Below are positions 3,135 to 41,121 of a stretch of 64,000 nt of DNA, piece after piece (positions within the stretch are counted from its first letter, which is position 1; the number at the start of each line of letters is the position of its first letter). Both the position numbers and the translations under genes were made by a program. The notes under the pieces were generated by a model that saw only the letters and a program-made list of their open reading frames with translations, was not told the DNA's origin and did no database searches. Source of the DNA: Candidatus Aenigmatarchaeota archaeon (lineage in GTDB: Archaea > EX4484-52); NCBI GenBank assembly GCA_023137195.1, contig JAGLPV010000015.1, positions 27,075 through 91,074 of the forward strand. Reading direction: 5' to 3'.

Positions 3135-5184
3135 TATTCAACTCTCCAGTTGCTTTGTTTAATTCGTCCACGATTCCTAATACCTCTTGTTCGCGTGTCA
3201 GTTTATCTATTTTGTTTTTTAAGTTCTTCTTCTTTTCAACCCAATCCTTTCGTTCTCTGGGCGACATTGAAGGAGAGTATTGACTATTCAATATCCTGAG
3301 CTCTTCTTTTGCATTATCCAACTTCCATTTGGTTAATAGTGGTTTTCCTTGTGGTTTTGTTTCTGGTGGTTTTTCGGCTTTTCTTTGCACTCTTAGTTTT
3401 TCTATTATAGCTGCTTCATAAAATTCCTTTATCAACTGGTAATTATTTTTATGTTCTTCTGCAATTCTCCGGTATTTTGGATGATTTAACATATAATGAA
3501 GTCGCTTTCTGTGTTCTAAATATTCTCTCTCTTCAGCAGGGTTTTTCCATTTTTTATTTGATGCATTGTGCGGTTCTTTTATCATTTCAGGATTTTCATG
3601 AATCTTTGCCGTTTCATGATTTTGTGCGTGTTGTTGATAGGTTATATCTTTACATAGATAATTGTCGTTTATACAGATATTTCCTTCGGGTCTCATCAAT
3701 TTAAGAATGGTGTTGTAGAATTCTGTTAAATCAATTTTCGGGGGAGTTGTTTTGGCTGAAGCCAAAGGTATGTTTTTATAATCCCTGTCTTTAATCTCGA
3801 ATTCCTTCGAGTAGATATAAAAAGAAGGCAGTTTATTGCTGGATATGCCTTCGTATTTTGAATAATACTGCTGTATTGTCGGGTCATAATAGGCATCATC
3901 TATCTTTAACAAAATATGGCTCCATCCACTTTCAGTATCCCTAACCACCCTCTTATCCCCTATATGTAAAATACATCTGTTTTCTTTACCATCATCCAAA
4001 GATATTGTTTTTTCCAGACTATTTTGTTTCTTCCCCTTCACATATATTTTTTCAACATTATTTTTACAAATACAGCAAATAACAATAACTCTTGCATTTA
4101 CTAGTTTGATTCTTTTCGGTTCTATAAATTCCAGACACTTTTCTATCATTTCATATGTCGCCAATCCACAGGCATTGAAATTGTATTTTTCAAAAGCTGT
4201 TTTTTTAATCTCTTCGAAAATTTTTTTAATCCTCTCTGGTTGATTCTCTTTTCTTTCAAACAGGTTATTTTCTTCAATAAGTCCCTTTTTCAGATAAATT
4301 ATTTTTTCCAGGATGTTTTCATACTTCTTTTTTTCAAGAGGATTTTTTTTAATATTTTCTTCAAGTGCAGATATTTTTTGGTTCAAAACAAGTTCTATCA
4401 AACCTATTTTGCTGTTTTTTTTTATTCTCACGAGTTCTTTTACTGCTTTTATTTTATCATCTGCGCTTTTTGAATCGACATAATCAATGACTATCGAAAG
4501 TATCTTTTGCTTATTTGATTTCTCTTCATCTTGCGGGTTTTCTTTTTTTATGCCGTATTTGTTTTGCAATTCTCTTATCTGGCTGTCGCCGAATCCCATT
4601 ATTTCCAGTAGAGGACAAACATACTCTATCTTGATTTTCTTTCTTTCTACTAACGTCATTATGTTGTCCAAAGCGGGTTTTCCGATATTTGAAAGTGTGG
4701 TTAAAGCCTTGTTGCGCACATTATAGTTTTTGTCTTCGAGTTCTTTTATTAGGATATACATTGTTGTCAATGTTTTTTTAATTGTTTCTCCCTTTATTTT
4801 TTTTATTTTATCTCGTGCCCCACCTATCAATTTACTAATCTCTTCTACTTCTTCTTTACTTAATTCTACCTTCTCTCCATCATCTTCAAATTCCATTGAA
4901 CTTGTCCCTGACTTAAAATTATTTATGTGATATTTCCACATCAATCGACGGAATGCACCACGATATTTTTTTCCGGCATCCTCAAAAAACTCATCTGGTT
5001 TTTCTATAGAAAACAGGTCACAAACATTGTCTAATGTTGCCTCTTTCTTGTCTCGAAAATGGATCTTGTCGATAACAAAATACTTTATGTCTGCACCTAA
5101 AATCAGGAAAGCCTCATTTGCAGTCATCTTGCCAGAGTTAATTTTAGTGTCTCTTAAAAATTTTGTGTGGTTTGTTTTTACCAT
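3115..5184 (-). CDS. HEAT-like repeat plus transglutaminase-like (Cys-His-Asp) domain protein; paralog of 6482..7879
   Basis: NACGLATYEMIEKCLE ... RIKLVNARVIV ... SHILLKIDDAYYDPTIQ matches the order and spacing of the transglutaminase-like cysteine peptidase core. There is an upstream HEAT-like segment (NVRNKALTTLSNIGKPALDNIM). The track ORF starts at TTG 5211; the first ATG is at 5184. Confidence 0.55.
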   Translation of the reverse strand: MVKTNHTKFLRDTKINSGKMTANEAFLILGADIKYFVIDKIHFRDKKEATLDNVCDLFSIEKPDEFFEDAGKKYRGAFRRLMWKYHINNFKSGTSSMEFEDDGEKVELSKEEVEEISKLIGGARDKIKKIKGETIKKTLTTMYILIKELEDKNYNVRNKALTTLSNIGKPALDNIMTLVERKKIKIEYVCPLLEIMGFGDSQIRELQNKYGIKKENPQDEEKSNKQKILSIVIDYVDSKSADDKIKAVKELVRIKKNSKIGLIELVLNQKISALEENIKKNPLEKKKYENILEKIIYLKKGLIEENNLFERKENQPERIKKIFEEIKKTAFEKYNFNACGLATYEMIEKCLEFIEPKRIKLVNARVIVICCICKNNVEKIYVKGKKQNSLEKTISLDDGKENRCILHIGDKRVVRDTESGWSHILLKIDDAYYDPTIQQYYSKYEGISSNKLPSFYIYSKEFEIKDRDYKNIPLASAKTTPPKIDLTEFYNTILKLMRPEGNICINDNYLCKDITYQQHAQNHETAKIHENPEMIKEPHNASNKKWKNPAEEREYLEHRKRLHYMLNHPKYRRIAEEHKNNYQLIKEFYEAAIIEKLRVQRKAEKPPETKPQGKPLLTKWKLDNAKEELRILNSQYSPSMSPRERKDWVEKKKNLKNKIDKLTREQEVLGIVDELNKATGELNNASRRE

Positions 5185-5191
5185 ATTGTTT

Positions 5192-6466
5192 TTATTTATT
5201 TTCTCCAACAATTTGATTTATTAACTTTATTATTTCTTCTTTCGTTTGATTCATTTGATTTTCACATATACCGTTTTTGTGTTTTAAGTTCTCAAATAAA
5301 GATAAATCAATATTTGGATTTTTAAGAAGACGTTCTTTAAGCTTCATTCGAAGAATATGATGTTTAAGTTTTCTTAATTCCTTTGCTTCTTGAACTTCGC
5401 ATTTATCCAAACGCTTTTCCTGTGTTAAATTTTCAATTTTGAGCAAAAACATAGAAAGATATTTATTTACTTCATTGGAAGGAAGATTAATATTTTCTAC
5501 GATATATTTTATAAATTCAAATAAACCATATCCTGCTTCATAATCAATTGGTCTTTGATTATATATTCCATCAATATAAGTTATTAAATTTCTATTAATT
5601 AAATAATTTTGAAAGAAAATATTTTTTATTTTTTTATCAGGACACTTTTTCATTACTTTATATACGTCTCGTCCTTGACGATGGATTTTACCTCTAAAAT
5701 CAAGATTTTTTTCTAACTCAATAAGTTTTTCTAACTTAATGTTTTTTTCATTACTACTATTTGGATTCCTGCCCCCAAAATCAATTATTTTCCATATTCC
5801 CTGTTCATCTAAAATAACATTATTGGAATGTAAATCTCCGTGAATGAAATCCTGATTGTGCATGACTGCAATTATTTTTCCTAACCGAGTAATTAGTTCT
5901 GGTTTTTCTAATAATATTTCTAATGGAATATCCCTTAGCTGAAATCCTTCAATTGGTTCCATAAGCAATTTTTGGGTCATTTCATTATTATAATACTCAT
6001 AAACTTTAGGTATATTATTTGGATGAATGCATCCAAAAATACGCATTCTTTTATATTCTTCCTCTTTTATTTCTTTTCCCATCAAAGGTATCTTTACAGC
6101 AATATTATGGCTATGTCCTTCTTTATCTTCAGCAGAAATACCAATCACTTCCCCTCTGCTTCCAGTCCCCAATTTGTTCGGTGGCTTAATAATATATTCT
6201 CCCCATTCTATATCCTCTTGGTCATTTTTCTGATTTAATGGTATTTCTCCGTTTTTTATTCCATAAACCAATTCTGTTATTTTTGAACCGCCCTGTAGAA
6301 AGTTTCCAAGCCACGTACCTTGCTCTTCTGTTTTTTTAGTCTTGTTTTCCTTTTTTTCTTTCAATAGTTTAAAAGTTTCAAAGACCCTTTCTTTAAATTC
6401 ATTTTCACTGTCTGGCAGGCTTTCAGTCAATTCAATAATTTTCATTTCTATTTCTTCCTTCCTCAT
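5192..6466 (-). CDS. Atypical protein kinase (Bud32/RIO-like core); paralog of 1608..3134
   Basis: LGTGSRGEV, IAVKI, LMEPIEG, IHGDLHSNNVIL, WKIIDFGG, in the same order as the other kinase. It shares C-terminal region motifs with it (NYLINRN versus SYLLNRD). Confidence 0.7.
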   Translation of the reverse strand: MRKEEIEMKIIELTESLPDSENEFKERVFETFKLLKEKKENKTKKTEEQGTWLGNFLQGGSKITELVYGIKNGEIPLNQKNDQEDIEWGEYIIKPPNKLGTGSRGEVIGISAEDKEGHSHNIAVKIPLMGKEIKEEEYKRMRIFGCIHPNNIPKVYEYYNNEMTQKLLMEPIEGFQLRDIPLEILLEKPELITRLGKIIAVMHNQDFIHGDLHSNNVILDEQGIWKIIDFGGRNPNSSNEKNIKLEKLIELEKNLDFRGKIHRQGRDVYKVMKKCPDKKIKNIFFQNYLINRNLITYIDGIYNQRPIDYEAGYGLFEFIKYIVENINLPSNEVNKYLSMFLLKIENLTQEKRLDKCEVQEAKELRKLKHHILRMKLKERLLKNPNIDLSLFENLKHKNGICENQMNQTKEEIIKLINQIVGENK

Positions 6467-33453: not shown

Positions 33454-36400
33454 ATGAGAAAAGCTCAAGTTTTACCCCTTAGTCTAATCGTGATAACGTT
33501 AATTCTTACTATTTATTATGTCGGCGGGACATTTTTCAAGGATGTCTCTCTCACAAAACAAGAAACAATGAATTATTATGTGGAAAATGCAAATGAAAAC
33601 GTGCAATTGATTAAACAGGCATTTGAAAAAACGGCATTATTCTGGGGGGTTATGAAAACTGCGGATGAGTTGGCTGAGAGCGGGGGAATTAGCAGTGCTG
33701 ACCTTGCCCTCGGTGCTGCAGACTCTGATAATTTCTGCCCACGGATGAACACTTCTTTAATAGGAGGAGAGAATATACTATACTGGGCATTGGCAGGAAA
33801 CAAGAGGATTGTAAAAAGAGTGCCTTTTATATATTATCTTGACAAAGAAACAACCGCCTATGATGTTACATTTCCTCTCCTTAATAAAGCCCAGCACGAG
33901 CAATATCTGAAAGATGTATCTAATAAGGTTTACAATTTGTCTATGACTATCCAGGTGTTATTCCTGAAACATGGAACAGTCAACATCACTTTTAACCAGG
34001 ATACGAGATATGCCACGTATATTATTGATGATACAGAAAAAGACGGGATTTATGAAATAAATTTCTTAAATGATAGTTTTATTCGCTCAACAAATGATGT
34101 TGATATAAGCATTAGAGGGGAAGATACAGCAGGAAACGTTGAAAAAATCGCAAAAATAAAGCAGATTGTCGTCTCAATATATAATGGGACTGTTGTTTTT
34201 GGACCTAATTCAATATTAAACAGTCACCTTACTGCCCCTGTAGCAAACCTTAATACAGAACTTGGCATAAATGCAGACGAAGAGATAAAAATATCTGTAG
34301 GCACTTTTGATGGTTCTTTTTCAAGAAAAACAACAAGTCCTAACAGTCCGGTATCTTCGCTTATGTGGGCAAGTGATGTGGGAATTGTCGCTACAATGAA
34401 AGATCCTTTTGATGATTCTGTTGATGCAGTCAAGATCAGGAGTAGGGGTCTTGTTGATGAAGATGTGTATATTCGGTACTGGTACCTGTACGATGCAGGG
34501 ATTTATTTTATAAACAATCTCGATGGATTGGTCAAGGCAAGGATTTGGGATAGGTTAAATACACTTGAGGATTATTATACAGACGTAGGTGATCAAGTTT
34601 GTGGGAAACCCGGGTGTCAAGTCAATGATAGTAGCACACGATCTTATTCAGAAGAGGATATTTATGATGAAATAGATGCCGGTCTTTCAGCATTAACTAC
34701 TCGTCTAAATAATGCGTATAGTTCTGCGGGCATAGAGTGGAGTGTATCTGCACCAAGAGCAATGCTTGATGATACGTCATTAGATACCAATTATAAGCAT
34801 ATGTGCAGTTCTTCTGTTGAAACAAATAGAACTGGCAATATAGTATATAAAGACAGTTACTTGAGCAAATGCACTCAAGACGGGACGTTATGTGGTGGGA
34901 AAACATGCATTAGAAGGAAGTCCTGTCCTACTTGTTATTACACTGTTGGGTGGCAGAATAAAAAATATAATACATGCACTTATTATTATGGTCATATATA
35001 TATTGTAAAAAATATCCCTGTCCTTGTAGAAATAACAGACACAAAATATCAAATTACTGACTCAAACGGGAATCAAAAAAATCCTACGATTAAATTCTTT
35101 GCAGAGATAGATAAAGTACAAGACAATTGCTGCAATAGCGGCAATACAGTATGCAGTTCATTAAGAAACAGCCATTGTTCAAATCCGTATGGGAAAATAA
35201 CTCCTGTTGCGCCTCCAGAGGTAAATCTTCCTCTTAATATTACCGATGTATTTGTATCTGATATAAATGAAAACAATGTGACAATAAACTGGCAATCAAC
35301 AAAGGATGCCACTTCTGTGCTCGTGGTTAAAAATTCATTGGGTGCTACTGTCTATTCCCATGCATATTCTTTAGATACTTTATTTGACCAAATAGTGACT
35401 GGTCTTGCAGAGGATCAGGTGTATACTTACGATATCACTGTAACTTCCGGGGCAGTAACAGATTCCTATTCTGATACGTTCACAACACATAAGACAGATA
35501 CTCCTCCTTCACCCGATCCTTTTTGCACCATAACAATAAATCCTCCTGTTGGTGGAGCTATCCTTTCGGGAACTGTAACTATAACTGCAACAGTAACCTG
35601 TCCTCCGGCCATAGGCAATATAGTTGCGGCAGATAATGTTTCATTTATGCTGGAGCAAGATTACGCACCAACCAGTTCTGCCTTGGCAGGACTAACAGCG
35701 ACATATAATCTAAATTGGGACTCTGAAGTAATATTAGAGGATGGATGGAAAAATATAAGCGCAAAATTCACAAAAACTGGGAAAAGTGTAAATGATAGAA
35801 TTCTTGTGATATTGAACAACGGTCAGGTTACATTGAATGTCAATGATATTGAAATAATACAGATGTCACTCACAACAGTAGATGTTATCGTTGACTTAAA
35901 CAAAGGCAGTCCGATGGTGACAACTCCTAAGCTTCTGAACCCAGATGATACAGACACGGGCATAATCCCTACTGAATCGCCTGCCAATACATATACATTT
36001 AGTCTTGCTGGTCTTAGTCCAGACACACACTATCCTACCACCGGAGCTAATGATAATTATACTTTTTATGCAACTGATGGAGCAGATATAGTGGAGAGGA
36101 ATATTTCATTTACAACAAACCCAAAAATTACCATTTCTACACTGGATACAACAGCAGAGGTTGTTGTTGAGACTACCCGGTCTGCATTAACCATGAAATT
36201 AGAAGATCATAATGGTGTTGGTGCAGGACCGCCGAACCAGATAGGAAACATATATACTTTCAATCTTAATGGGCTCAGCGCAGACACTCGCTATCCTCAC
36301 CCAACAGATATGACAAAATTTTATACTCTTAAAATAAATGATGCCGGAACAATAGAGGAATGTGATAGTCTTTGGTTCCAGACAAAGACATCATGCAAAA

Positions 36401-36690
36401 TAGAGATAATAACGCCTTCTTCCGGGATTGTTAAAGGAATAAAGACAATACAAGTAGATGTAACGGAATGTCCTAATGATATTACGGAAAATGTTAATGT
36501 TATTGTTAATGGTGGGGTTTTTTCAACAGTGATTAGTCCATCTTTTACTGGTCCAGACCACACGAAATCAGAATACATAACTTCATGGAATACCGCTATG
36601 GATGTAAATGGAACTTATGATCTTGATGCTTCTTTTACAAAGTTAGGCAAAACAATAACCGATAGTATAATTGTAACAATAGACAATTGA
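33454..36690 (+). CDS. Giant extracellular protein with FN3/Ig-like repeats
   Basis: N-terminal hydrophobic anchor. An FN3-like segment (NITDVFVSDINENNVTINWQSTKDATSVLVV). Two related Cys-bracketed Ig-like modules (CTITINPPVGGAILSGTVTITATVTC and CKIEIITPSSGIVKGIKTIQVDVTEC). Confidence 0.55.
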   Translation: MRKAQVLPLSLIVITLILTIYYVGGTFFKDVSLTKQETMNYYVENANENVQLIKQAFEKTALFWGVMKTADELAESGGISSADLALGAADSDNFCPRMNTSLIGGENILYWALAGNKRIVKRVPFIYYLDKETTAYDVTFPLLNKAQHEQYLKDVSNKVYNLSMTIQVLFLKHGTVNITFNQDTRYATYIIDDTEKDGIYEINFLNDSFIRSTNDVDISIRGEDTAGNVEKIAKIKQIVVSIYNGTVVFGPNSILNSHLTAPVANLNTELGINADEEIKISVGTFDGSFSRKTTSPNSPVSSLMWASDVGIVATMKDPFDDSVDAVKIRSRGLVDEDVYIRYWYLYDAGIYFINNLDGLVKARIWDRLNTLEDYYTDVGDQVCGKPGCQVNDSSTRSYSEEDIYDEIDAGLSALTTRLNNAYSSAGIEWSVSAPRAMLDDTSLDTNYKHMCSSSVETNRTGNIVYKDSYLSKCTQDGTLCGGKTCIRRKSCPTCYYTVGWQNKKYNTCTYYYGHIYIVKNIPVLVEITDTKYQITDSNGNQKNPTIKFFAEIDKVQDNCCNSGNTVCSSLRNSHCSNPYGKITPVAPPEVNLPLNITDVFVSDINENNVTINWQSTKDATSVLVVKNSLGATVYSHAYSLDTLFDQIVTGLAEDQVYTYDITVTSGAVTDSYSDTFTTHKTDTPPSPDPFCTITINPPVGGAILSGTVTITATVTCPPAIGNIVAADNVSFMLEQDYAPTSSALAGLTATYNLNWDSEVILEDGWKNISAKFTKTGKSVNDRILVILNNGQVTLNVNDIEIIQMSLTTVDVIVDLNKGSPMVTTPKLLNPDDTDTGIIPTESPANTYTFSLAGLSPDTHYPTTGANDNYTFYATDGADIVERNISFTTNPKITISTLDTTAEVVVETTRSALTMKLEDHNGVGAGPPNQIGNIYTFNLNGLSADTRYPHPTDMTKFYTLKINDAGTIEECDSLWFQTKTSCKIEIITPSSGIVKGIKTIQVDVTECPNDITENVNVIVNGGVFSTVISPSFTGPDHTKSEYITSWNTAMDVNGTYDLDASFTKLGKTITDSIIVTIDN

Positions 36691-36691
36691 A

Positions 36692-37567
36692 TCAGACAAA
36701 ACAAGATAGGATGAGTCCCAGAACCACGAAAACAGACAGATTAATTGTTTTTTGTATCTTTAATGTATCAATACCACCTGCTTTTAATTTTTCAATATCC
36801 TGGTGTGTTATTGGTCGAAAAGGAGAGATGACCTCTTTTTTATTCATGTAATTGTTCATCATCTTCTGACGGAAAATTGAATTTATGAACATTGGAATAT
36901 TCTGCCTCGTGAATTTTTCTTTTGTTCGGATTACAAACTCCGCGGGAATCATGCCGGCTCGCAACTGGTTTGTCGGGCACCATATTGAAAAAGAATCTGT
37001 GATTACATTAAATGCGAAAACAGCAAATAGCAAGACCAGGGAATTTTCCAGTGAAGCAATTGAATTCAATGCAATGAAAAAATACATATCTGCAAGGAAA
37101 TAAAGCAGCATTTTGTTTTTATTCAACAATTTCATTGTTTTGTTTTTGCCCATCCTGTTCAAAAAAACCTCTATGCAGAAGAATAAAAGGGCAGATAAAA
37201 TAAAGGAGATTCTTTGGTTTTTCAATACGACCATGAAAAGGGAATTGTAAAAGAACATTGCAAGAAAAAAAGAATAATAATATTCTATCTGCTTTCTTGT
37301 TTTGCTGGGGTATTTTACCTGCTCCTCTTCTTTGTAGAATATTGTTTTTTTGGAAAGAGAGTATAGAAATACATAAGCAAAATACAAAATTACTGTGTTT
37401 TTAAGTACGCTTTCTGCGATGTATGGGTTTGGGTTAAAGAAGAACAAAACCAAGACTCCGGTAAAATAAAGGGTTGCTGTCTTTCTGCCCATTACTTTTA
37501 GAAAAACCAAAATCAGGCAAATCAATATTAATTTTGCCATGACAATAAATAATGGTGGTATAATCAT
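36692..37567 (-). CDS. Polytopic membrane protein, last gene of the radical-SAM peptide operon
   Basis: 291 aa with about 7 hydrophobic helices and a soluble basic insert before the last helix. Its ATG lies 3 nt after the stop of the upstream rSAM gene. No family motif recognised. Confidence 0.5.
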   Translation of the reverse strand: MIIPPLFIVMAKLILICLILVFLKVMGRKTATLYFTGVLVLFFFNPNPYIAESVLKNTVILYFAYVFLYSLSKKTIFYKEEEQVKYPSKTRKQIEYYYSFFLAMFFYNSLFMVVLKNQRISFILSALLFFCIEVFLNRMGKNKTMKLLNKNKMLLYFLADMYFFIALNSIASLENSLVLLFAVFAFNVITDSFSIWCPTNQLRAGMIPAEFVIRTKEKFTRQNIPMFINSIFRQKMMNNYMNKKEVISPFRPITHQDIEKLKAGGIDTLKIQKTINLSVFVVLGLILSCFV

Positions 37568-37570
37568 AAT

Positions 37571-38956
37571 CTATTCTTCTGTCTTCAATATTGCCTTAAA
37601 ATAGTCAATATATTTTTTATCATTTAGTCTTTTGAACAGGTAATCCAGTATGACTTTATTTACATAACAGTCGAAATCGCCCGGTGTTTTTGCGACAAAA
37701 CTCCCGTAAGTGGCATAAGTCATGACAGCACAGTTTCCGCAGAAATTATTGTATGCGCATGTGTCGCACAATGGCTGGAATTCCTGTGTGCGTGTTCTCA
37801 AATCCAGAGTATCCATTACAATCTGGCTGAAGGTTGTTGTCTTTATATTCCCTACTTTCAATTCAGGTATGCTTCTTGCAATGTCGCAGGGATAAATATC
37901 TCCGTTTGGCGTAATGGAAACCTGGGTCATTGCCGCTCCGCAGGGCATTCTCATACACATATATCTTTTTACAGGAAAGATTATGTTTTTTATAAATGTA
38001 GTTATGTTTCGGTCTGCCATCAGGTATTTTTTTTCGTTGAATAAAAAGACGCAATACTCAAATGAGTCTTTCAAAAAGTCTGCAAATTCTTTTTTGCCCG
38101 GGGTCAAATAAGTGTTTTTTTTGCCCCTGCCCAGCTCATTTACGGCGCGCAGATAAATGCCGTTTCTTCCCAGTTTTATGTACTCGTCAATTATTGCCCT
38201 TGCGCCAACATCAATTGATTTTTTTGTGATTGTGGGCATTGTGCCCACTGTTCTTTTTCTTTTTTCAAAATAATCGCACCACTTCACTACTGCATCATAA
38301 CTGCCTCTTCCGTCAATAAAACTTCTTTGGGCATCATGAAGTTCTCTTGGACCGTCAAGGGATGAAGAAAGACCTATGTTGTTTTCCAGGATGTAATCTG
38401 CTATTTCTAGGTTCATCAGGGTGAGATTGGATACGATTGTTGCGCTTGCAAGGGTCTTGTTGTATTTTTTTTTCCTTTTGTTGAATTCTTCCAGGATATA
38501 TTTTATTTTGTCAAACCTCAGCAATGGCTCTCCGCCCTGGAATTCAATTGTTATGTTCTTGTGGGGGAGATTTAGGATAAAATCAAGATATGCCTCAATT
38601 GTCCTGTCGTCCATGTCCAGATTCTCTTCTTCCCTGGTTCCGGCATTTGCATGGCAATAAAGGCAACCCAAATTGCACCTGTGTGTGAGATTGACAATGC
38701 AATTCATAAATATGGATTTGTTCTGCATGTATTGCATACCAGTAAGAGCAATAACATCTTTTGTGTTTTGTGTGTCAAGTAAAATCTTGTTTTCGACTAG
38801 CTTTTTTGTCCAGTTCTTATTTTGCCTGTATTGACCATTATTTAATGCCCTATACTCTTTTTCAGACAGCAATGCATAAGTTCCGCATCTGGTTGTTACC
38901 AAAAACAGGTCTTTGTCTATTTTCCTTGAAAAATACTCGTTTAGTACTGGTTCCAT
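37571..38956 (-). CDS. Radical SAM / SPASM-domain peptide-maturase-like protein
   Basis: CNLGCLYC (Cx3Cx2C) and EFQGGEPLL. C-terminal PCGAA...NGDIYPCD and CDTCAYNNFCGNC (SPASM CxxCx5Cx3C). About 85 aa precede the cluster motif and could be a peptide-binding domain. Confidence 0.8.
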   Translation of the reverse strand: MEPVLNEYFSRKIDKDLFLVTTRCGTYALLSEKEYRALNNGQYRQNKNWTKKLVENKILLDTQNTKDVIALTGMQYMQNKSIFMNCIVNLTHRCNLGCLYCHANAGTREEENLDMDDRTIEAYLDFILNLPHKNITIEFQGGEPLLRFDKIKYILEEFNKRKKKYNKTLASATIVSNLTLMNLEIADYILENNIGLSSSLDGPRELHDAQRSFIDGRGSYDAVVKWCDYFEKRKRTVGTMPTITKKSIDVGARAIIDEYIKLGRNGIYLRAVNELGRGKKNTYLTPGKKEFADFLKDSFEYCVFLFNEKKYLMADRNITTFIKNIIFPVKRYMCMRMPCGAAMTQVSITPNGDIYPCDIARSIPELKVGNIKTTTFSQIVMDTLDLRTRTQEFQPLCDTCAYNNFCGNCAVMTYATYGSFVAKTPGDFDCYVNKVILDYLFKRLNDKKYIDYFKAILKTEE

Positions 38957-38969
38957 ATTGCATCATTTG

Positions 38970-40736
38970 TCATTGTCTGGGGTTAAACTCACCTATCCCA
39001 TATTCTTTTATGTAGTTTGACCAGACGCCGTCGCATTTAGTCCTGTAAAATGAACAGGTTTTGCATATGTTGTTGTTTGCAGCTTCCTGGCTTTCTCTAT
39101 CATACAAAGGCATTCTTTTTTGCCTCAATGAATTTATGTTTTTGTAATTTTTTAAAACACAGATAGGGAACATGTCTACCTGACAATTTATTTTTTTTGA
39201 TTTTGCAAAGTTTATTGCAGAATCCATGTAAGGGGCTACTTTGCCTGCTTTTATAGAAAGTATTTTCTTGTTTCTTATTGCAGAGCCGTTTATACTTAGG
39301 AAACTAAAAATAATGCTTGTTTTGCCGGGGAATCTCGTGTGTAGAAAATCCACTATGTCTTTTAGATATATGTAATTCATCTTATGCATGACTATCTTTA
39401 TTATTATGGCGCAATTGTTGTTTACTAAGTTCTCAATGCCATTTAGTGTTTCGTTGAAACTTCCCTTTCTTTGTGTGATTTTGTCATGCAGTTCTGCATT
39501 GTGCCCGTGAATATCAATGCAAAAACGAGTTATTCCTGCTTGAATTATATTTTTCGCAAAAATATCATCCTTTAATTTTCTGCCATTTGTAGTTATGGAG
39601 ACATTGTCTGTGTATTTTTTTATGTGTTTTATCAAAGGAATTATGTCCTTAAATATTGTCGGCTCTCCGCCCATCAATACAATAGAATCCTGTTTTCTTA
39701 ATTTAAGCAAATCAATCTTTTCCTTTATTTTTTCCGGGGTCTTGTCGTTGGATGGGTTGTTTCCGTTTTCAGAGCAAAAAAGACAGTCATTATTGCATGC
39801 GCCGCATACATCAAAAACGATTGTTTTCTTATTTTCTTTTTTTTCCTGCTTTAATTCGCCTGTTCCAAACGCATCATAATAGCTGGACCATGTGCCATAG
39901 CATTTTTTGTTCAAATCGCATGAATAACATTCCGGGGCAGCTCCATGTTCATCTGTTTTATTCTGCACTTCCTTTGAAGGTGACCTATATAGGGAAACTG
40001 TGTCTGGCTGCTGCCCGGCATAATTCCGATATTCCTTACTAAGAACGCACAAAGGAATAGAATACAAAACCATGTTGATATTATATTTATTTGCGATATC
40101 TATTGCCTTATAGACATAAGGAATATAATCTGTAAAGGAAACTGCAACTTTGTCTTTAGATGCCAGTGCCATCCCCCTGATATCCAGCCCGTTTATTGAC
40201 ATATTCTTTACTGAAGGGAAATTCTTTGCGACAAACTCGACAATCTGCGGCATGTCTTTATAATTTAGCTTTGTGACTATTATTTTTACAGTTACAGGAA
40301 CATTTAGTTGGGATAAATTTTTTATTCCCTGGTGGGTCTCTCTAAAACTCCCTTTTACCTGTGTGAGTTCATCGTGTTTTTCCTCTTTCCAGTGATGCAA
40401 TGCAGTAATGACGCTTCTTATATTGTATCCTGAAAATTCTCCGGCAAATGCAAAATTGCAAAATCTCCTGCCGTTTGTAAGCAGAGAGTAATGCAAATAA
40501 GGATATTTTTGACCCAGGTATGATAAAATATACAAAAAATCTTCTCTTACTGTCGGCTCACCACCAGAAAGTTCAATAAGCCCAATGTCCTTGTTTTTTT
40601 CCAGGCGATTATTAAAGAAATCCAAAACTTCTTTTTTTGTCATATTCTTATTCCTGTTGGAATGCGCATCCACAACACAAATAAGACAATTATTATTGCA
40701 CCTGTATCCGAGCGCGCAATAGCATTTTGTAAACAT
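38970..40736 (-). CDS. Fused tandem double radical SAM protein
   Basis: There are two homologous halves. Half 1 has YRCNNNCLIC, LSGGEPTV, LTNGRRF, HDELTQVKGSFRETHQGIKNL and CYSCDLNKKCYGTWSSYY. Half 2 has CGACNNDCLFC, LMGGEPTI, TTNGRKL, HDKITQRKGSFNETLNGIENL and CKTCSFYRTKCDGVWSNY. Confidence 0.8.
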   Translation of the reverse strand: MFTKCYCALGYRCNNNCLICVVDAHSNRNKNMTKKEVLDFFNNRLEKNKDIGLIELSGGEPTVREDFLYILSYLGQKYPYLHYSLLTNGRRFCNFAFAGEFSGYNIRSVITALHHWKEEKHDELTQVKGSFRETHQGIKNLSQLNVPVTVKIIVTKLNYKDMPQIVEFVAKNFPSVKNMSINGLDIRGMALASKDKVAVSFTDYIPYVYKAIDIANKYNINMVLYSIPLCVLSKEYRNYAGQQPDTVSLYRSPSKEVQNKTDEHGAAPECYSCDLNKKCYGTWSSYYDAFGTGELKQEKKENKKTIVFDVCGACNNDCLFCSENGNNPSNDKTPEKIKEKIDLLKLRKQDSIVLMGGEPTIFKDIIPLIKHIKKYTDNVSITTNGRKLKDDIFAKNIIQAGITRFCIDIHGHNAELHDKITQRKGSFNETLNGIENLVNNNCAIIIKIVMHKMNYIYLKDIVDFLHTRFPGKTSIIFSFLSINGSAIRNKKILSIKAGKVAPYMDSAINFAKSKKINCQVDMFPICVLKNYKNINSLRQKRMPLYDRESQEAANNNICKTCSFYRTKCDGVWSNYIKEYGIGEFNPRQ

Positions 40737-40739
40737 AGC

Positions 40740-41072
40740 CTATAACCACCTAAGAGACCATGTATTGGAATGCCTGGTCCAGTTGCACCAGTCGCTCCAG
40801 TCGCACCAGTCACACCACTGCGCCCAGTTACTCCATCCAGCATGATGCGTGTTTTTTACAGAAGGGTTTGTGCTATTATTCCACCCGGAAACGCAGGTTG
40901 ATGCCTCTGCCTCCGGTGAGCTGGAAAGCAGATATCCTGCTGCTGCACCTAAAAGGACAAGCCCTGTAATAACTCCTGTTTTTTCATCATTACTCAGGTA
41001 ATTCAGAGAAAACATAGCTTTCTTGTTTTCAAGCTTGTTTTTTATCTTTTTTATTTTATCTGCAAAAGCCAT
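40740..41072 (-). CDS. Candidate precursor peptide with a C-terminal (W-x-x)7 Trp/Cys ladder
   Basis: 110 aa with an ATG start, and its stop lies 3 nt before the rSAM gene ATG. It has a Lys-rich N-terminus, a hydrophobic segment GVITGLVLLGAAAGYLL, the AEAS motif, then ...HHAGWSNWAQWCDWCDWSDWCNWTRHSNTWSLRWL. Confidence 0.6.
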   Translation of the reverse strand: MAFADKIKKIKNKLENKKAMFSLNYLSNDEKTGVITGLVLLGAAAGYLLSSSPEAEASTCVSGWNNSTNPSVKNTHHAGWSNWAQWCDWCDWSDWCNWTRHSNTWSLRWL

Positions 41073-41121
41073 ATAAAAGCATAATATTTAATTATTTAAA
41101 TTTAATTCATTCAATATACTT

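What the first reader, a model, noticed from the sequence alone, without database searches (positions are those of the whole stretch)
40773..40835. Seven in-register W-x-x triplets (WSN WAQ WCD WCD WSD WCN WTR) in the candidate precursor core
Translation of 40835 to 40773 on the minus strand gives Trp at every third residue for 21 residues. I verified the codons at the 3' end (tgg-acc-agg = W-T-R). The last ~53 aa contain 10 Trp and 4 Cys. The DNA shows the same periodicity (TGG TGY GAC ...). An aromatic-X-X repeat is the substrate motif of three-residue-cyclophane-forming rSAM/SPASM enzymes (the triceptide class, which includes His-Xaa-Ser systems with two rSAM maturases). The Cys at the x position in four triplets would equally suit thioether chemistry. 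The region ahead of the core is unusual. It has a Lys-rich head and then a hydrophobic stretch GVITGLVLLGAAAGYLL followed by AEAS. That resembles a signal peptide or TM anchor more than a soluble RiPP leader.
Basis: partly seen in the sequence, partly recalled or inferred. Interest (0 to 1): 0.85.

Follow-up and report, generated by a model that had tools for sequence, protein, structure and literature searches.

The report
Tryptophan-ladder peptide with radical-SAM maturases
A small archaeal gene encodes an export-type peptide with tryptophan at every third residue, sitting in an operon with three radical-SAM enzyme domains related to the bacterial His-Xaa-Ser (HXS) antiphage system; it looks like a rare, undescribed Trp version of that system.

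Summary
Window 40835..40773 (-) reads WSN WAQ WCD WCD WSD WCN WTR, inside a 110-aa ORF (40740..41072). It is far beyond chance and is conserved in about 18 relatives. One slip: Cys sits in three triplets, not four.

The ORF heads a tight four-gene operon:
- precursor
- a 588-aa fusion of two HxsC-like radical-SAM domains
- a 461-aa HxsB-like rSAM/SPASM enzyme
- a 291-aa membrane protein, a catalytically dead relic of an A24 leader peptidase

Relatives occur only in a few DPANN archaeal MAGs. They keep a Lys-rich head, an EKTGVxxGLxLLGA hydrophobic segment, an A-x-A site, one invariant Cys, and a W-[S/G/C]-[N/D] ladder. Sister clades add HxsD. More distant tandem-HxsC loci in CPR bacteria and DPANN archaea carry His-Xaa-Ser precursors (NCBIfam HxsA4).

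So this is a Trp-for-His variant of an Hxs-type system that no curated model captures. W-x-N/D is a proven triceptide motif (XncB, OscB), so Trp-to-Cβ cyclophanes are the best guess for the chemistry. Cys thioethers inside the ladder are not conserved. Chemistry and biological role remain inferred. I rate it a new variant of a known kind, interest about 0.7.

The parts
41093..41100 (-). TATA-like box (tttaaata), 21 nt upstream of the precursor ATG, in the 49-bp divergent spacer shared with the thiolase gene
   Evidence: Read directly from the sequence. That it acts as a promoter is inferred and not tested. It would imply a leaderless or very short 5' UTR.
40740..41072 (-). Precursor gene, 110 aa plus stop: leader followed by a Trp-ladder core
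   Evidence: ORF. Eight homologues at 60-99% identity and more distant ones. Codon-position pattern supports this frame. It is called as a gene in the source assembly GCA_030639115.1.
40977..41072 (-). Residues 1-32: Lys-rich head (DKIKKIKNKL...) ending in the invariant E30 of E-K-T-G. Candidate recognition sequence for the maturases and positive n-region.
   Evidence: 8 Lys, net charge +4. The DK[IL]KKIK and EKTG motifs are conserved across 14 aligned sequences.
40926..40976 (-). Residues 33-49: hydrophobic segment GVITGLVLLGAAAGYLL (signal-peptide h-region or membrane anchor)
   Evidence: Highest hydropathy in the protein. G33, V34, G37 and L38 are invariant.
40902..40925 (-). Residues 50-57: SSSPEAEA, a polar c-region with a small-x-small (A-E-A) signal-peptidase-type site
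   Evidence: Read from the sequence. A-x-A-like motifs sit at the same place in all relatives (AEA, ADA, AAA, ASA). Cleavage itself is not shown.
40893..40895 (-). Cys60, the one invariant Cys of the family, between the A-x-A site and the ladder
   Evidence: Invariant column in A7. Also present in the precursors of L009, L086, L207 and L209.
40773..40835 (-). Trp ladder: WSN WAQ WCD WCD WSD WCN WTR, seven in-register W-x-x triplets. Family consensus is W-[S/G/C]-[N/D].
40743..40772 (-). C-terminal tail HSNTWSLRWL. The 'HSN' after the ladder is shared by the closest relatives.
   Evidence: Alignment A1.
39855..40736 (-). First HxsC-like radical-SAM domain of the 588-aa fusion (CNNNCLIC, GGEPT, C-terminal CxxCx5C...W cluster motif)
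   Evidence: TIGR03977 at 171.2 bits, best family but below the 267.9 cut-off. Conserved Cys columns in alignment A2. The gene starts 3 nt after the precursor stop.
38970..39854 (-). Second HxsC-like radical-SAM domain of the fusion (CNNDCLFC, GGEPT, CKTCx6C...W), plus stop
   Evidence: TIGR03977 at 141.2 bits and HxsC4 (NF038332) at 122.5 bits. 32% identical to the first half, E 4e-42.
37571..38956 (-). HxsB-like radical-SAM/SPASM peptide maturase, 461 aa
   Evidence: TIGR03978 at 299.7 bits (cut-off 370), followed by PapB, DynA and SCIFF maturases. Pfam Radical_SAM plus SPASM. Closest solved structure is the thioether maturase CteB, 5WGG, E 7e-30.
36692..37567 (-). 291-aa multi-pass membrane protein: a relic of an A24 (type IV leader) peptidase + Arc_PepC protein that has lost both catalytic Asp motifs
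   Evidence: jackhmmer links it to 360-408-aa proteins of HxS-type loci. One of these, L024 (363 aa), passes the Pfam thresholds for Peptidase_A24 and Arc_PepC. hhalign gives 96.9% probability, E 1.7e-10, but only over residues 48-288, the region after the AGDAKLF motif. The alignment shows no D...GDxK equivalents.
33454..36690 (+). 1078-aa Cys-rich secreted or anchored protein, convergent with the operon. Possible partner; not established as part of the system.
   Evidence: Found at the same position in every Trp-ladder locus with enough flank, at 28-53% identity, even where upstream synteny differs. No family hit. The AF2 model is unusable.

Best explanation
The 110-aa ORF is the substrate (the HxsA-equivalent) of an Hxs-type radical-SAM maturation cassette of a DPANN archaeon. 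In it, the usual His-Xaa-Ser repeats are replaced by a Trp-[Ser/Gly/Cys]-[Asn/Asp] ladder.

Proposed course of events:
1. The peptide is made with a long Lys-rich head and a conserved EKTGVxxGLxLLGA segment.
2. In the cytoplasm, the HxsB-like rSAM/SPASM enzyme and the two fused HxsC-like rSAM domains modify the repeat triplets one by one. The most likely product is a C-C bond from the Trp indole to Cβ of the Asn/Asp two residues on, giving a string of three-residue cyclophanes.
3. The invariant Cys60 is possibly also modified.
4. The hydrophobic segment then takes the roughly 50-aa modified core across, or into, the membrane. Cleavage probably occurs at the A-x-A site.
5. The core then acts at the cell envelope.

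What is shown: the gene content, order, tight spacing, family relationships and conservation pattern.
What is inferred: the modification chemistry, export and cleavage, and the role. An envelope defence like bacterial HXS, or a host-contact function, is the least certain step.
For: - The four genes lie on one strand, 3-13 nt apart.
- Best family for both halves of the 588-aa protein is HxsC, and for the 461-aa protein HxsB.
- The same precursor-CC-B(-membrane) order recurs in enzymes only 39-44% identical. There HxsD (PF27806) sits directly upstream.
- More distant tandem-HxsC loci in CPR bacteria and DPANN archaea carry long H-x-S repeat precursors. These have the same layout (Lys-rich head, E-E-G-K, hydrophobic stretch, A-x-A), and two of them pass the NCBIfam HxsA4 cut-off.
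- Ladder statistics over 15 sequences and 74 triplets: x3 is N or D in 74%, then R, Q, S; x2 is a small residue. One-residue register shifts are tolerated, so the unit is the local triplet rather than a global period.
- Trp-C6/C7 to Cβ of Asn/Asp/Arg is established 3-CyFE chemistry.
- Bacterial HxsA carries a signal peptide, is matured by HxsB/C/D and works outside the cytoplasm.
Against: - No HxsD was found anywhere in the 64-kb window or in the closest relatives' loci.
- All three rSAM domains score below the curated Hxs cut-offs.
- The HxsB-like enzyme is not close to any characterised triceptide synthase. Its closest solved relative makes thioethers.
- The only chemistry measured for an Hxs system is +8 Da, not -2 Da per ring.
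- Sequence homology between Trp-type and HxsA4-type leaders could not be shown (hhalign probability 14%).
- The ladder's net charge ranges from -10 to +3. The electrostatic DNA-trapping proposed for bacterial HxsA therefore cannot simply be transferred.
- The locus sits among housekeeping genes, not in a defence island.
- The membrane partner has lost its peptidase motifs and is missing from L009 and from the second cassette of L209.
Confidence: 0.6

Rival explanations
1. The radical-SAM enzymes make thioether (sacti/ranthi-type) bridges from Cys. The Trp residues are bystanders or structural.
For: The window's ladder has three Cys at x2 and one upstream Cys. After HxsB, the next-best NCBIfam families for the 461-aa enzyme are the PapB ranthipeptide (153 bits) and SCIFF thioether maturases. 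Its closest solved structure is CteB, 5WGG. Cys60 is invariant in the family.
Against: Cys fills only 15 of 74 ladder triplets. The L004/L006/L007/L207 sub-clade has 0-1 Cys in ladders of 9-13 Trp, whereas Trp and x3 = N/D are conserved. At most one conserved thioether, from Cys60, is possible. That cannot explain a conserved multi-copy W-x-[N/D] repeat or three rSAM domains.
Confidence: 0.12
2. The ladder is mainly a glycosylation target. After export, a GT-C glycosyltransferase (PMT_2) decorates it: O-glycosylation of the Ser/Thr at x2, or Trp C-glycosylation at W-x-x-W as eukaryotic DPY19 does. The rSAM enzymes do something else.
For: PMT_2 genes lie inside or next to the cassette in several relatives. 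They are on the same strand between two cassettes in L002 and L209, adjacent in L004 (two copies) and L208, and a partial PMT_2-like gene adjoins L007. Every ladder Trp but the last lies in a W-x-x-W motif. That W-x-x-W is the eukaryotic C-mannosylation consensus is my own background knowledge, not a tool result.
Against: No PMT_2 homologue was found in the 64-kb window, nor in L001, L008 or L006. PMT_2 also neighbours His-Xaa-Ser loci, which have no Trp. The background frequency of PMT_2 genes in these genomes was not measured. This would not explain three rSAM domains that are always present.
Confidence: 0.1
3. The Trp ladder is an unmodified structural or interfacial element: a Trp stripe on a 3-residue-per-turn extended helix that anchors at the membrane interface or binds glycans. 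The adjacent enzymes act on another substrate.
For: The N-terminal segment looks like a signal anchor. Trp at every third residue would line up on one face of a polyproline-II-like helix (inference). A large conserved secreted protein is always next door.
Against: The precursor is the first gene of a 3-nt-spaced operon with the maturases in every relative. One-residue insertions break the global register in L004, L006, L007, L207 and the P0130-P0134 group while local triplets persist. Position 3 is constrained to N/D. That is the residue 3-CyFE-type enzymes attack, and a Trp stripe has no need for it.
Confidence: 0.08

Closest known systems
Bacterial HXS antiphage system (HxsA/B/C/D; TIGR03979/03978/03977/03976; PMC13128918)
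   Same: - A short repeat-bearing protein with an N-terminal export signal, encoded next to one SPASM-type and one non-SPASM radical-SAM enzyme. These are the best family hits for the window's enzymes.
- Three-residue repeat unit.
- HxsD is present in the sister clades.
- In the bacterial system, maturation precedes export and is needed for periplasmic accumulation.
   Different: - The repeat is Trp-x-Asn/Asp, not His-x-Ser.
- No peptidoglycan-binding domain.
- The ladder is neutral to acidic rather than basic.
- HxsC is duplicated and fused.
- Gene order is A-CC-B-membrane instead of D-B-C-A.
- No HxsD in the window.
- An A24-peptidase-derived membrane protein is added.
- The host is a DPANN archaeon, whereas 99.7% of HXS systems are in Pseudomonadota.
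- All enzyme scores are below the curated cut-offs.
HxsA4/HxsC4-type His-Xaa-Ser systems of CPR bacteria and DPANN archaea (NCBIfam NF038313, NF038332; no experimental work found)
   Same: - Tandem or multiple HxsC-like domains, an HxsB-like enzyme and HxsD.
- A membrane protein of the same family as the window's 291-aa protein.
- A precursor with a Lys-rich head, hydrophobic stretch, A-x-A and flanking Cys.
- Frequent PMT_2 neighbours.
   Different: - Their repeats are H-[S/G/A/T]-S, often tens to more than a hundred copies.
- Their membrane partner keeps the A24 catalytic motifs (TxYED, AGDAKLF).
- The Trp precursors do not hit the HxsA4 model, and leader homology is not demonstrable.
Triceptides / three-residue cyclophane-forming rSAM-SPASM enzymes (XncB, OscB/GrrM, MscB, YxdB, HaaB, YhhB, HtkB, ChlB)
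   Same: - The substrate logic is an aromatic-X-X motif, often repeated.
- W-x-N, W-x-D and W-x-R are proven substrates (Trp C6/C7 to Cβ).
- A SPASM-domain rSAM is encoded beside the precursor.
   Different: - The HxsB-like enzyme is outside the curated 3-CyFE families (64-65 bits against cut-offs of 310 and 445).
- Two extra non-SPASM rSAM domains are present.
- The leader is a signal-peptide-like segment rather than a soluble leader.
- The host is archaeal.
- No chemistry has been measured.

Membership tests
His-Xaa-Ser (Hxs) system | HxsA: a small protein with tandem His-Xaa-Ser repeats (TIGR03979, or HxsA2/A3/A4 models) | tested here: not met
   The core is W-x-x. There was no NCBIfam hit even at E<=1, while HxS precursors from related loci hit HxsA4 and HxsA3.
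His-Xaa-Ser (Hxs) system | HxsC radical-SAM maturase (TIGR03977, cut-off 267.9 bits) | tested here: inconclusive
   The whole fusion scores 300.6 bits, but only as the sum of two domains. The halves alone score 171.2 and 141.2 bits. HxsC is the top family for each half.
His-Xaa-Ser (Hxs) system | HxsB radical-SAM/SPASM maturase (TIGR03978, cut-off 370 bits) | tested here: inconclusive
   299.7 bits over nearly the full length (residues 11-454). This is the top family by a wide margin but below the cut-off.
His-Xaa-Ser (Hxs) system | HxsD (TIGR03976 / PF27806) encoded in the cassette | tested here: not met
   tblastn and an HMM built from six archaeal HxsD sequences find nothing in the 64-kb window or in L001, L008 or L009. 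HxsD is present in the sister Trp-ladder clades. A copy elsewhere in the genome cannot be excluded.
His-Xaa-Ser (Hxs) system | Export signal on the repeat protein and extracytoplasmic action | not testable with these tools
   A signal-peptide-like n/h/c layout is visible. No signal-peptide predictor or experiment was available.
Triceptides (3-CyFE RiPPs) | Precursor with an aromatic-X-X motif | tested here: met
   Seven in-register W-x-x triplets. The family consensus is W-[S/G/C]-[N/D]. W-x-N/D/R are known substrates.
Triceptides (3-CyFE RiPPs) | Maturase belongs to a characterised 3-CyFE rSAM/SPASM family | tested here: not met
   GrrM/OscB (TIGR04261) scores 64.3 bits against a cut-off of 310. 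YhhB (NF041707) scores 65 bits against 445. ChlB (9GM3) is only a weak PDB hit, E 2e-7.
Triceptides (3-CyFE RiPPs) | Aromatic-carbon to Cβ(i+2) cross-link, -2 Da per ring | not testable with these tools
   Needs MS/MS and NMR on the modified peptide.
Sactipeptides / ranthipeptides | Conserved Cys donors for thioether bridges in the core | tested here: not met
   Ladder Cys are not conserved (15 of 74 triplets). Only Cys60 is invariant.
A24 type IV leader peptidases | Two catalytic Asp motifs (first-TM Asp and GxGDxK-like) | tested here: not met
   The 291-aa protein aligns only with the region after the AGDAKLF motif of its A24-containing relatives. Its N-terminus has no equivalent Asp.

The most novel reading that the evidence does not exclude
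The ladder is matured into a chain of up to seven consecutive Trp cyclophanes. This would be a poly-triceptide made by Hxs-type rather than classical 3-CyFE enzymes, possibly further glycosylated. It is then displayed on, or released from, the envelope of an ultrasmall DPANN archaeon. There it serves as an HXS-like barrier to viruses or as a host-contact factor. It would be the first archaeal member, and the first Trp-based chemistry, of the Hxs family. It would also give a handle on what HxsB and HxsC actually catalyse.
Probability: 0.3. Interest if true: 0.85.

Novelty: new variant of a known kind. Interest (0 to 1): 0.7.

Why it matters
- The chemistry of Hxs-type radical-SAM pairs is still unsolved. 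The only published data are a +8 Da shift and an antiphage phenotype in E. coli. A natural variant with Trp in place of His, in a motif already known to be cyclised by other rSAM enzymes, offers a clean comparison for working out what HxsB and HxsC each do.
- It would extend this system to archaea. Together with the many His-Xaa-Ser loci found here in CPR bacteria and DPANN archaea, it suggests that exported, rSAM-matured repeat peptides are a common envelope feature of ultrasmall symbiotic prokaryotes.
- A string of back-to-back Trp cyclophanes would be an unusual rigid peptide scaffold.

Tried and rejected
1. Leader homology. A profile-profile comparison of Trp-type and HxsA4-type leaders gave only 14% probability over 15 residues. 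I claim parallel architecture, not homology.
2. Viral W-ladder scan. I scanned viral contigs with the DNA pattern TGGNNNRAY x4. All 120 loci fetched were off-frame readings of other tandem (collagen-like) repeats, with no leader. This was a dead end. It also shows that gene callers can pick the wrong frame here, as happened to the L207 precursor.
3. Precursor profile against viral contigs: nothing found. Against JGI metagenomes: only two loci.
4. AlphaFold2 of the conserved 582-aa N-terminal part of the neighbouring 1078-aa protein, using 5 sequences, gave mean pLDDT 45.8. That is unusable, so I ran no fold search.
5. PADLOC gave only generic rSAM similarity to viperins.
6. HxsD was searched for in the window by tblastn and by HMM and not found.
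7. Lipobox reading of Cys60: rejected. About 10-13 polar residues separate the hydrophobic stretch from the Cys.
8. Bacterial sigma-70 promoter and terminator scans are uninformative for an archaeon.

Full report
**1. The observation**

The minus strand of 40835..40773 translates to WSNWAQWCDWCDWSDWCNWTR. This is the only run of four or more W-x-x triplets in any of the six frames of the window. It lies in a 110-aa ORF (40740..41072, minus strand):

MAFADKIKKIKNKLENKKAMFSLNYLSNDEKTGVITGLVLLGAAAGYLLSSSPEAEASTCVSGWNNSTNPSVKNTHHAGWSNWAQWCDWCDWSDWCNWTRHSNTWSLRWL

The ORF has 10 Trp and 4 Cys, all in the last 53 residues.

- Chance: Trp makes up 0.74% of residues in the window's long ORFs. A seven-fold in-register run is expected about 1.5e-10 times in the window. 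Even shuffles of the 53-aa core with its own 10 Trp reach seven in only 2e-5 of cases.
- DNA: Tandem Repeats Finder reports a 9-bp unit, 4.3 copies, at 40779-40817.
- Frame: against three orthologues, differences pile up at third codon positions (for example 51 versus 30 and 18), with 32 synonymous codon changes each. The Trp frame is therefore the coding one. The overlapping 'GVTGATGATG' ORF is a by-product.
- Correction: Cys is at the x position in three triplets, not four.

**2. The surroundings**

The ORF is the first gene of a tight minus-strand operon.

- Three nucleotides after its stop begins a 588-aa protein made of two radical-SAM domains. The halves are 32% identical (E 4e-42). Each has CxxxCxxC, GGEPT and a C-terminal CxxCx5C...W motif whose Cys are conserved in relatives. 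The best NCBIfam family for each half is HxsC, at 171.2 and 141.2 bits against a cut-off of 267.9. The second half also resembles HxsC4.
- Thirteen nucleotides further on starts a 461-aa rSAM/SPASM enzyme. Its best family by far is HxsB (299.7 bits, cut-off 370), followed by PapB, DynA and SCIFF maturases. Its closest solved structure is CteB, 5WGG.
- Three nucleotides after that starts a 291-aa membrane protein with no family hit above threshold.
- A TATA-like tttaaata sits 21 nt upstream of the precursor ATG, in the 49-bp spacer shared with a divergent thiolase gene. This is read and its promoter function is inferred.
- The window is contig DAOWDG010000010.1 of the MAG GCA_030639115.1.
- The closest relatives are MAGs labelled Candidatus Nanohalarchaeota or Aenigmarchaeota, including ex4484_52. 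These are DPANN archaea.

**3. Relatives of the precursor**

A word-indexed search of 5.8 billion proteins found eight homologues. An exhaustive HMM search of 1.84 billion representatives found only nine hits at E<=1e-3. A JGI metagenome scan found two loci. The family is rare: with loci read by hand it comes to about 18 sequences in three sub-clades.

- (i) Window type: ...EAEASTCVSGWNN...GWSNWGxWCxW...HSN.
- (ii) L004/L006/L007/L207 type: ...DEWGNWSDWTNSWNNWSDWTNWSDWSDWEHWGNWGNWGNWGN, with up to 13 Trp.
- (iii) P0130-P0134/L086 type, with W-x-N-H-C-W-W-D-H-x-W followed by a short ladder.

Invariant positions are E30, G33, V34, G37, L38 (leader), C60, W80, N82, W86 and W89.

Over 74 ladder triplets:

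| Position | Residue counts |
|---|---|
| 2 | S 22, G 17, C 15, N 7, T 4 |
| 3 | N 32, D 23, R 6, Q 4, S 4 |

One-residue insertions shift the global register in several members while the local triplets persist. The conserved unit is therefore W-small-[N/D], not a long-range period, and Cys in the ladder is dispensable.

**4. Relatives of the enzymes and what they sit next to**

- In enzymes 56-67% identical to the window's, the order precursor-tandem HxsC-HxsB-like is kept. The membrane protein follows in L001/L008 but is missing from L009 and from the second cassette of L209.
- In enzymes 39-44% identical, the order is HxsD (PF27806)-precursor-tandem HxsC-HxsB-like-membrane protein.
- Sub-clade (iii) has HxsD-precursor-single HxsC.
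- No HxsD exists in the 64-kb window or in the loci of its closest relatives.
- A scan of one genome per GTDB species with the tandem-HxsC alignment found 381 relatives. They occur mostly in CPR bacteria (Saccharibacteria, Paceibacterota, Falkowbacteria and others) and DPANN archaea, with some in Elusimicrobia and Myxococcota.
- A regex pass over those loci shows that, outside the small Trp clade, they carry long H-[S/G/A/T]-S repeat precursors. These have a Lys-rich head, an E-E-G-K-I-S-K-K element, a hydrophobic stretch and an A-x-A-H junction. Two of them pass the NCBIfam HxsA4 cut-off, and the Trp precursors hit nothing.
- The layout is thus parallel, but profile-profile comparison of the leaders was not significant.

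**5. The membrane protein**

- jackhmmer links the 291-aa protein to 360-408-aa proteins of the His-Xaa-Ser loci.
- One of those, L024 (363 aa), passes the Pfam thresholds for Peptidase_A24 and Arc_PepC. As a group they share the motifs TxYED...NK and WAAGDAKLF.
- hhalign gives 96.9% probability (E 1.7e-10), but only for residues 48-288. That region lies after the catalytic motifs.
- The Trp-clade proteins lack both Asp motifs. So this is a catalytically dead relic of a type IV leader peptidase. It may act as a scaffold or export helper.
- It is absent from L009 and from the second cassette of L209. The first cassette of L209 keeps only a fragment.

**6. What is known about the reference systems**

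- The bacterial HXS system (HxsD-B-C-A) is an antiphage defence. [quoted passage not shown] HxsB, HxsC and HxsD are all needed for an N-terminal cleavage, and a +8 Da change was mapped to SHRSS. The mature protein acts in the periplasm and binds DNA. 99.7% of systems are in Pseudomonadota (PMC13128918).
- Separately, three-residue cyclophane-forming rSAM/SPASM enzymes cross-link an aromatic residue to Cβ of residue i+2. XncB links Trp-C6 to Arg/Asn and OscB links Trp-C7 to Asn/Asp (PMC11002830; PMC11499958).
- The third-position spectrum of the ladder (N, D, then R) matches those substrates. However, the HxsB-like enzyme is far from the curated 3-CyFE families.
- I found no paper describing a Trp-repeat Hxs variant or an archaeal one.

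**7. Most likely mechanism**

Shown:
- an operon of one repeat peptide and three rSAM domains of Hxs type
- conservation of the leader, one Cys and the W-small-[N/D] triplets
- a signal-peptide-like n/h/c layout (net +4 head, 17-residue hydrophobic core, A-E-A)

Inferred:
- the cytoplasmic Fe-S enzymes modify each triplet before export, most plausibly as Trp-to-Cβ(N/D) cyclophanes
- Cys60 may get its own modification
- the hydrophobic segment then drives export, with cleavage near A-x-A
- the roughly 50-aa product acts at the envelope

Its role is the weakest link. The ladder's net charge runs from -10 to +3 among relatives, so the electrostatic DNA trapping proposed for HxsA is not a conserved property here. 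The locus also sits among housekeeping genes: thiolase, an MBF1-like HTH protein and RNase P subunits.

**8. Rivals**

- Thioethers from ladder Cys are contradicted by the lack of Cys conservation. A single Cys60 bridge remains possible.
- Glycosylation by neighbouring PMT_2 (GT-C) enzymes is suggested by their presence in or beside several relatives' cassettes. No PMT_2 homologue was found in the window, and PMT_2 also neighbours His-type loci.
- A purely structural, unmodified Trp stripe does not explain the operon, the tolerated register shifts or the N/D constraint.

**9. Verdict**

It is wrong on thioether parity, and it goes beyond the evidence in filing Hxs under triceptides.

It is best described as a Trp-x-Asn/Asp variant of an Hxs-type system, with a fused double HxsC, no local HxsD and a degenerate A24-peptidase partner, in a DPANN archaeon. 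That makes it a new variant of a known kind, rare and unannotated. It is of real interest because it could make the unsolved Hxs chemistry testable.

Noticed in passing
window 33454-36690 (+); also L001 12358-15336, L009 3557-6484, L004 9558-11369, L006 9167-10918, L007 6612-8351, and the called genes L207 8328-10073 and L209 8176-11145: A large (580-1080 aa) Cys-rich protein with an N-terminal hydrophobic anchor lies convergent to the cassette in every Trp-ladder locus with enough flank. Identity is 28-53% over about 570 aa where compared, even where the upstream genes differ. It has no family hit and may be a functional partner. For L207 and L209 only the position and size were seen; homology was not compared.
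   Followed up: partly
L002 1114-3147, L209 2426-4453, L004 1-439 and 1696-3438, L007 1-420 (partial), L208 502-2136; also about 10 His-Xaa-Ser loci (e.g. L064, L011, L021, L032): PMT_2-type GT-C glycosyltransferase genes recur inside or beside these cassettes. In L002 and L209 they sit on the same strand between two cassettes. No homologue was found in the window. Enrichment over the genomic background was not measured.
   Followed up: partly
L024, L036, L031, L052 and other loci: Many CPR/DPANN His-Xaa-Ser loci carry arrays of four to eight consecutive single HxsC-like radical-SAM genes, rather than one or a fused pair. Their precursors have tens to more than a hundred H-x-S repeats, in proteins up to about 520 aa.
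   Followed up: no
L207 3748-4074 versus the called gene 3917-5947: The gene caller missed the Trp-ladder precursor. It extended the tandem HxsC gene upstream through the off-frame 'GATGQTGQTAGATGETG' reading of the ladder. The same off-frame ORF exists in the window (40640-40843). Trp-ladder genes may therefore be under-annotated.
   Followed up: yes
L209 1-1508, 1835-2275 and 4514-8186; L002/L003: In one lineage the cassette is duplicated in tandem: ...HxsCC-HxsB-membrane fragment-PMT_2-precursor-HxsCC-HxsB. The first copy of the membrane gene is reduced to a 146-aa fragment.
   Followed up: partly
P0129 (5520 aa): A giant protein matched the precursor profile in 56 separate stretches (profile positions 36-74, the hydrophobic segment plus the junction). 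This is probably a low-complexity or repeat artefact and was not examined.
   Followed up: no
L208 3584-4201: An HxsD domain is fused to a Pfam FeS (PF04060) domain, directly upstream of a tandem HxsC. No Trp ladder is visible on the short contig.
   Followed up: no
L006 2667-3954, L207 1872-3177: A second module (a 466-474-aa rSAM, a second HxsD and a 283-287-aa protein) sits upstream of the Trp cassette in two relatives. The L006 283-aa protein has a weak DUF483 hit; the L207 287-aa protein has none.
   Followed up: no
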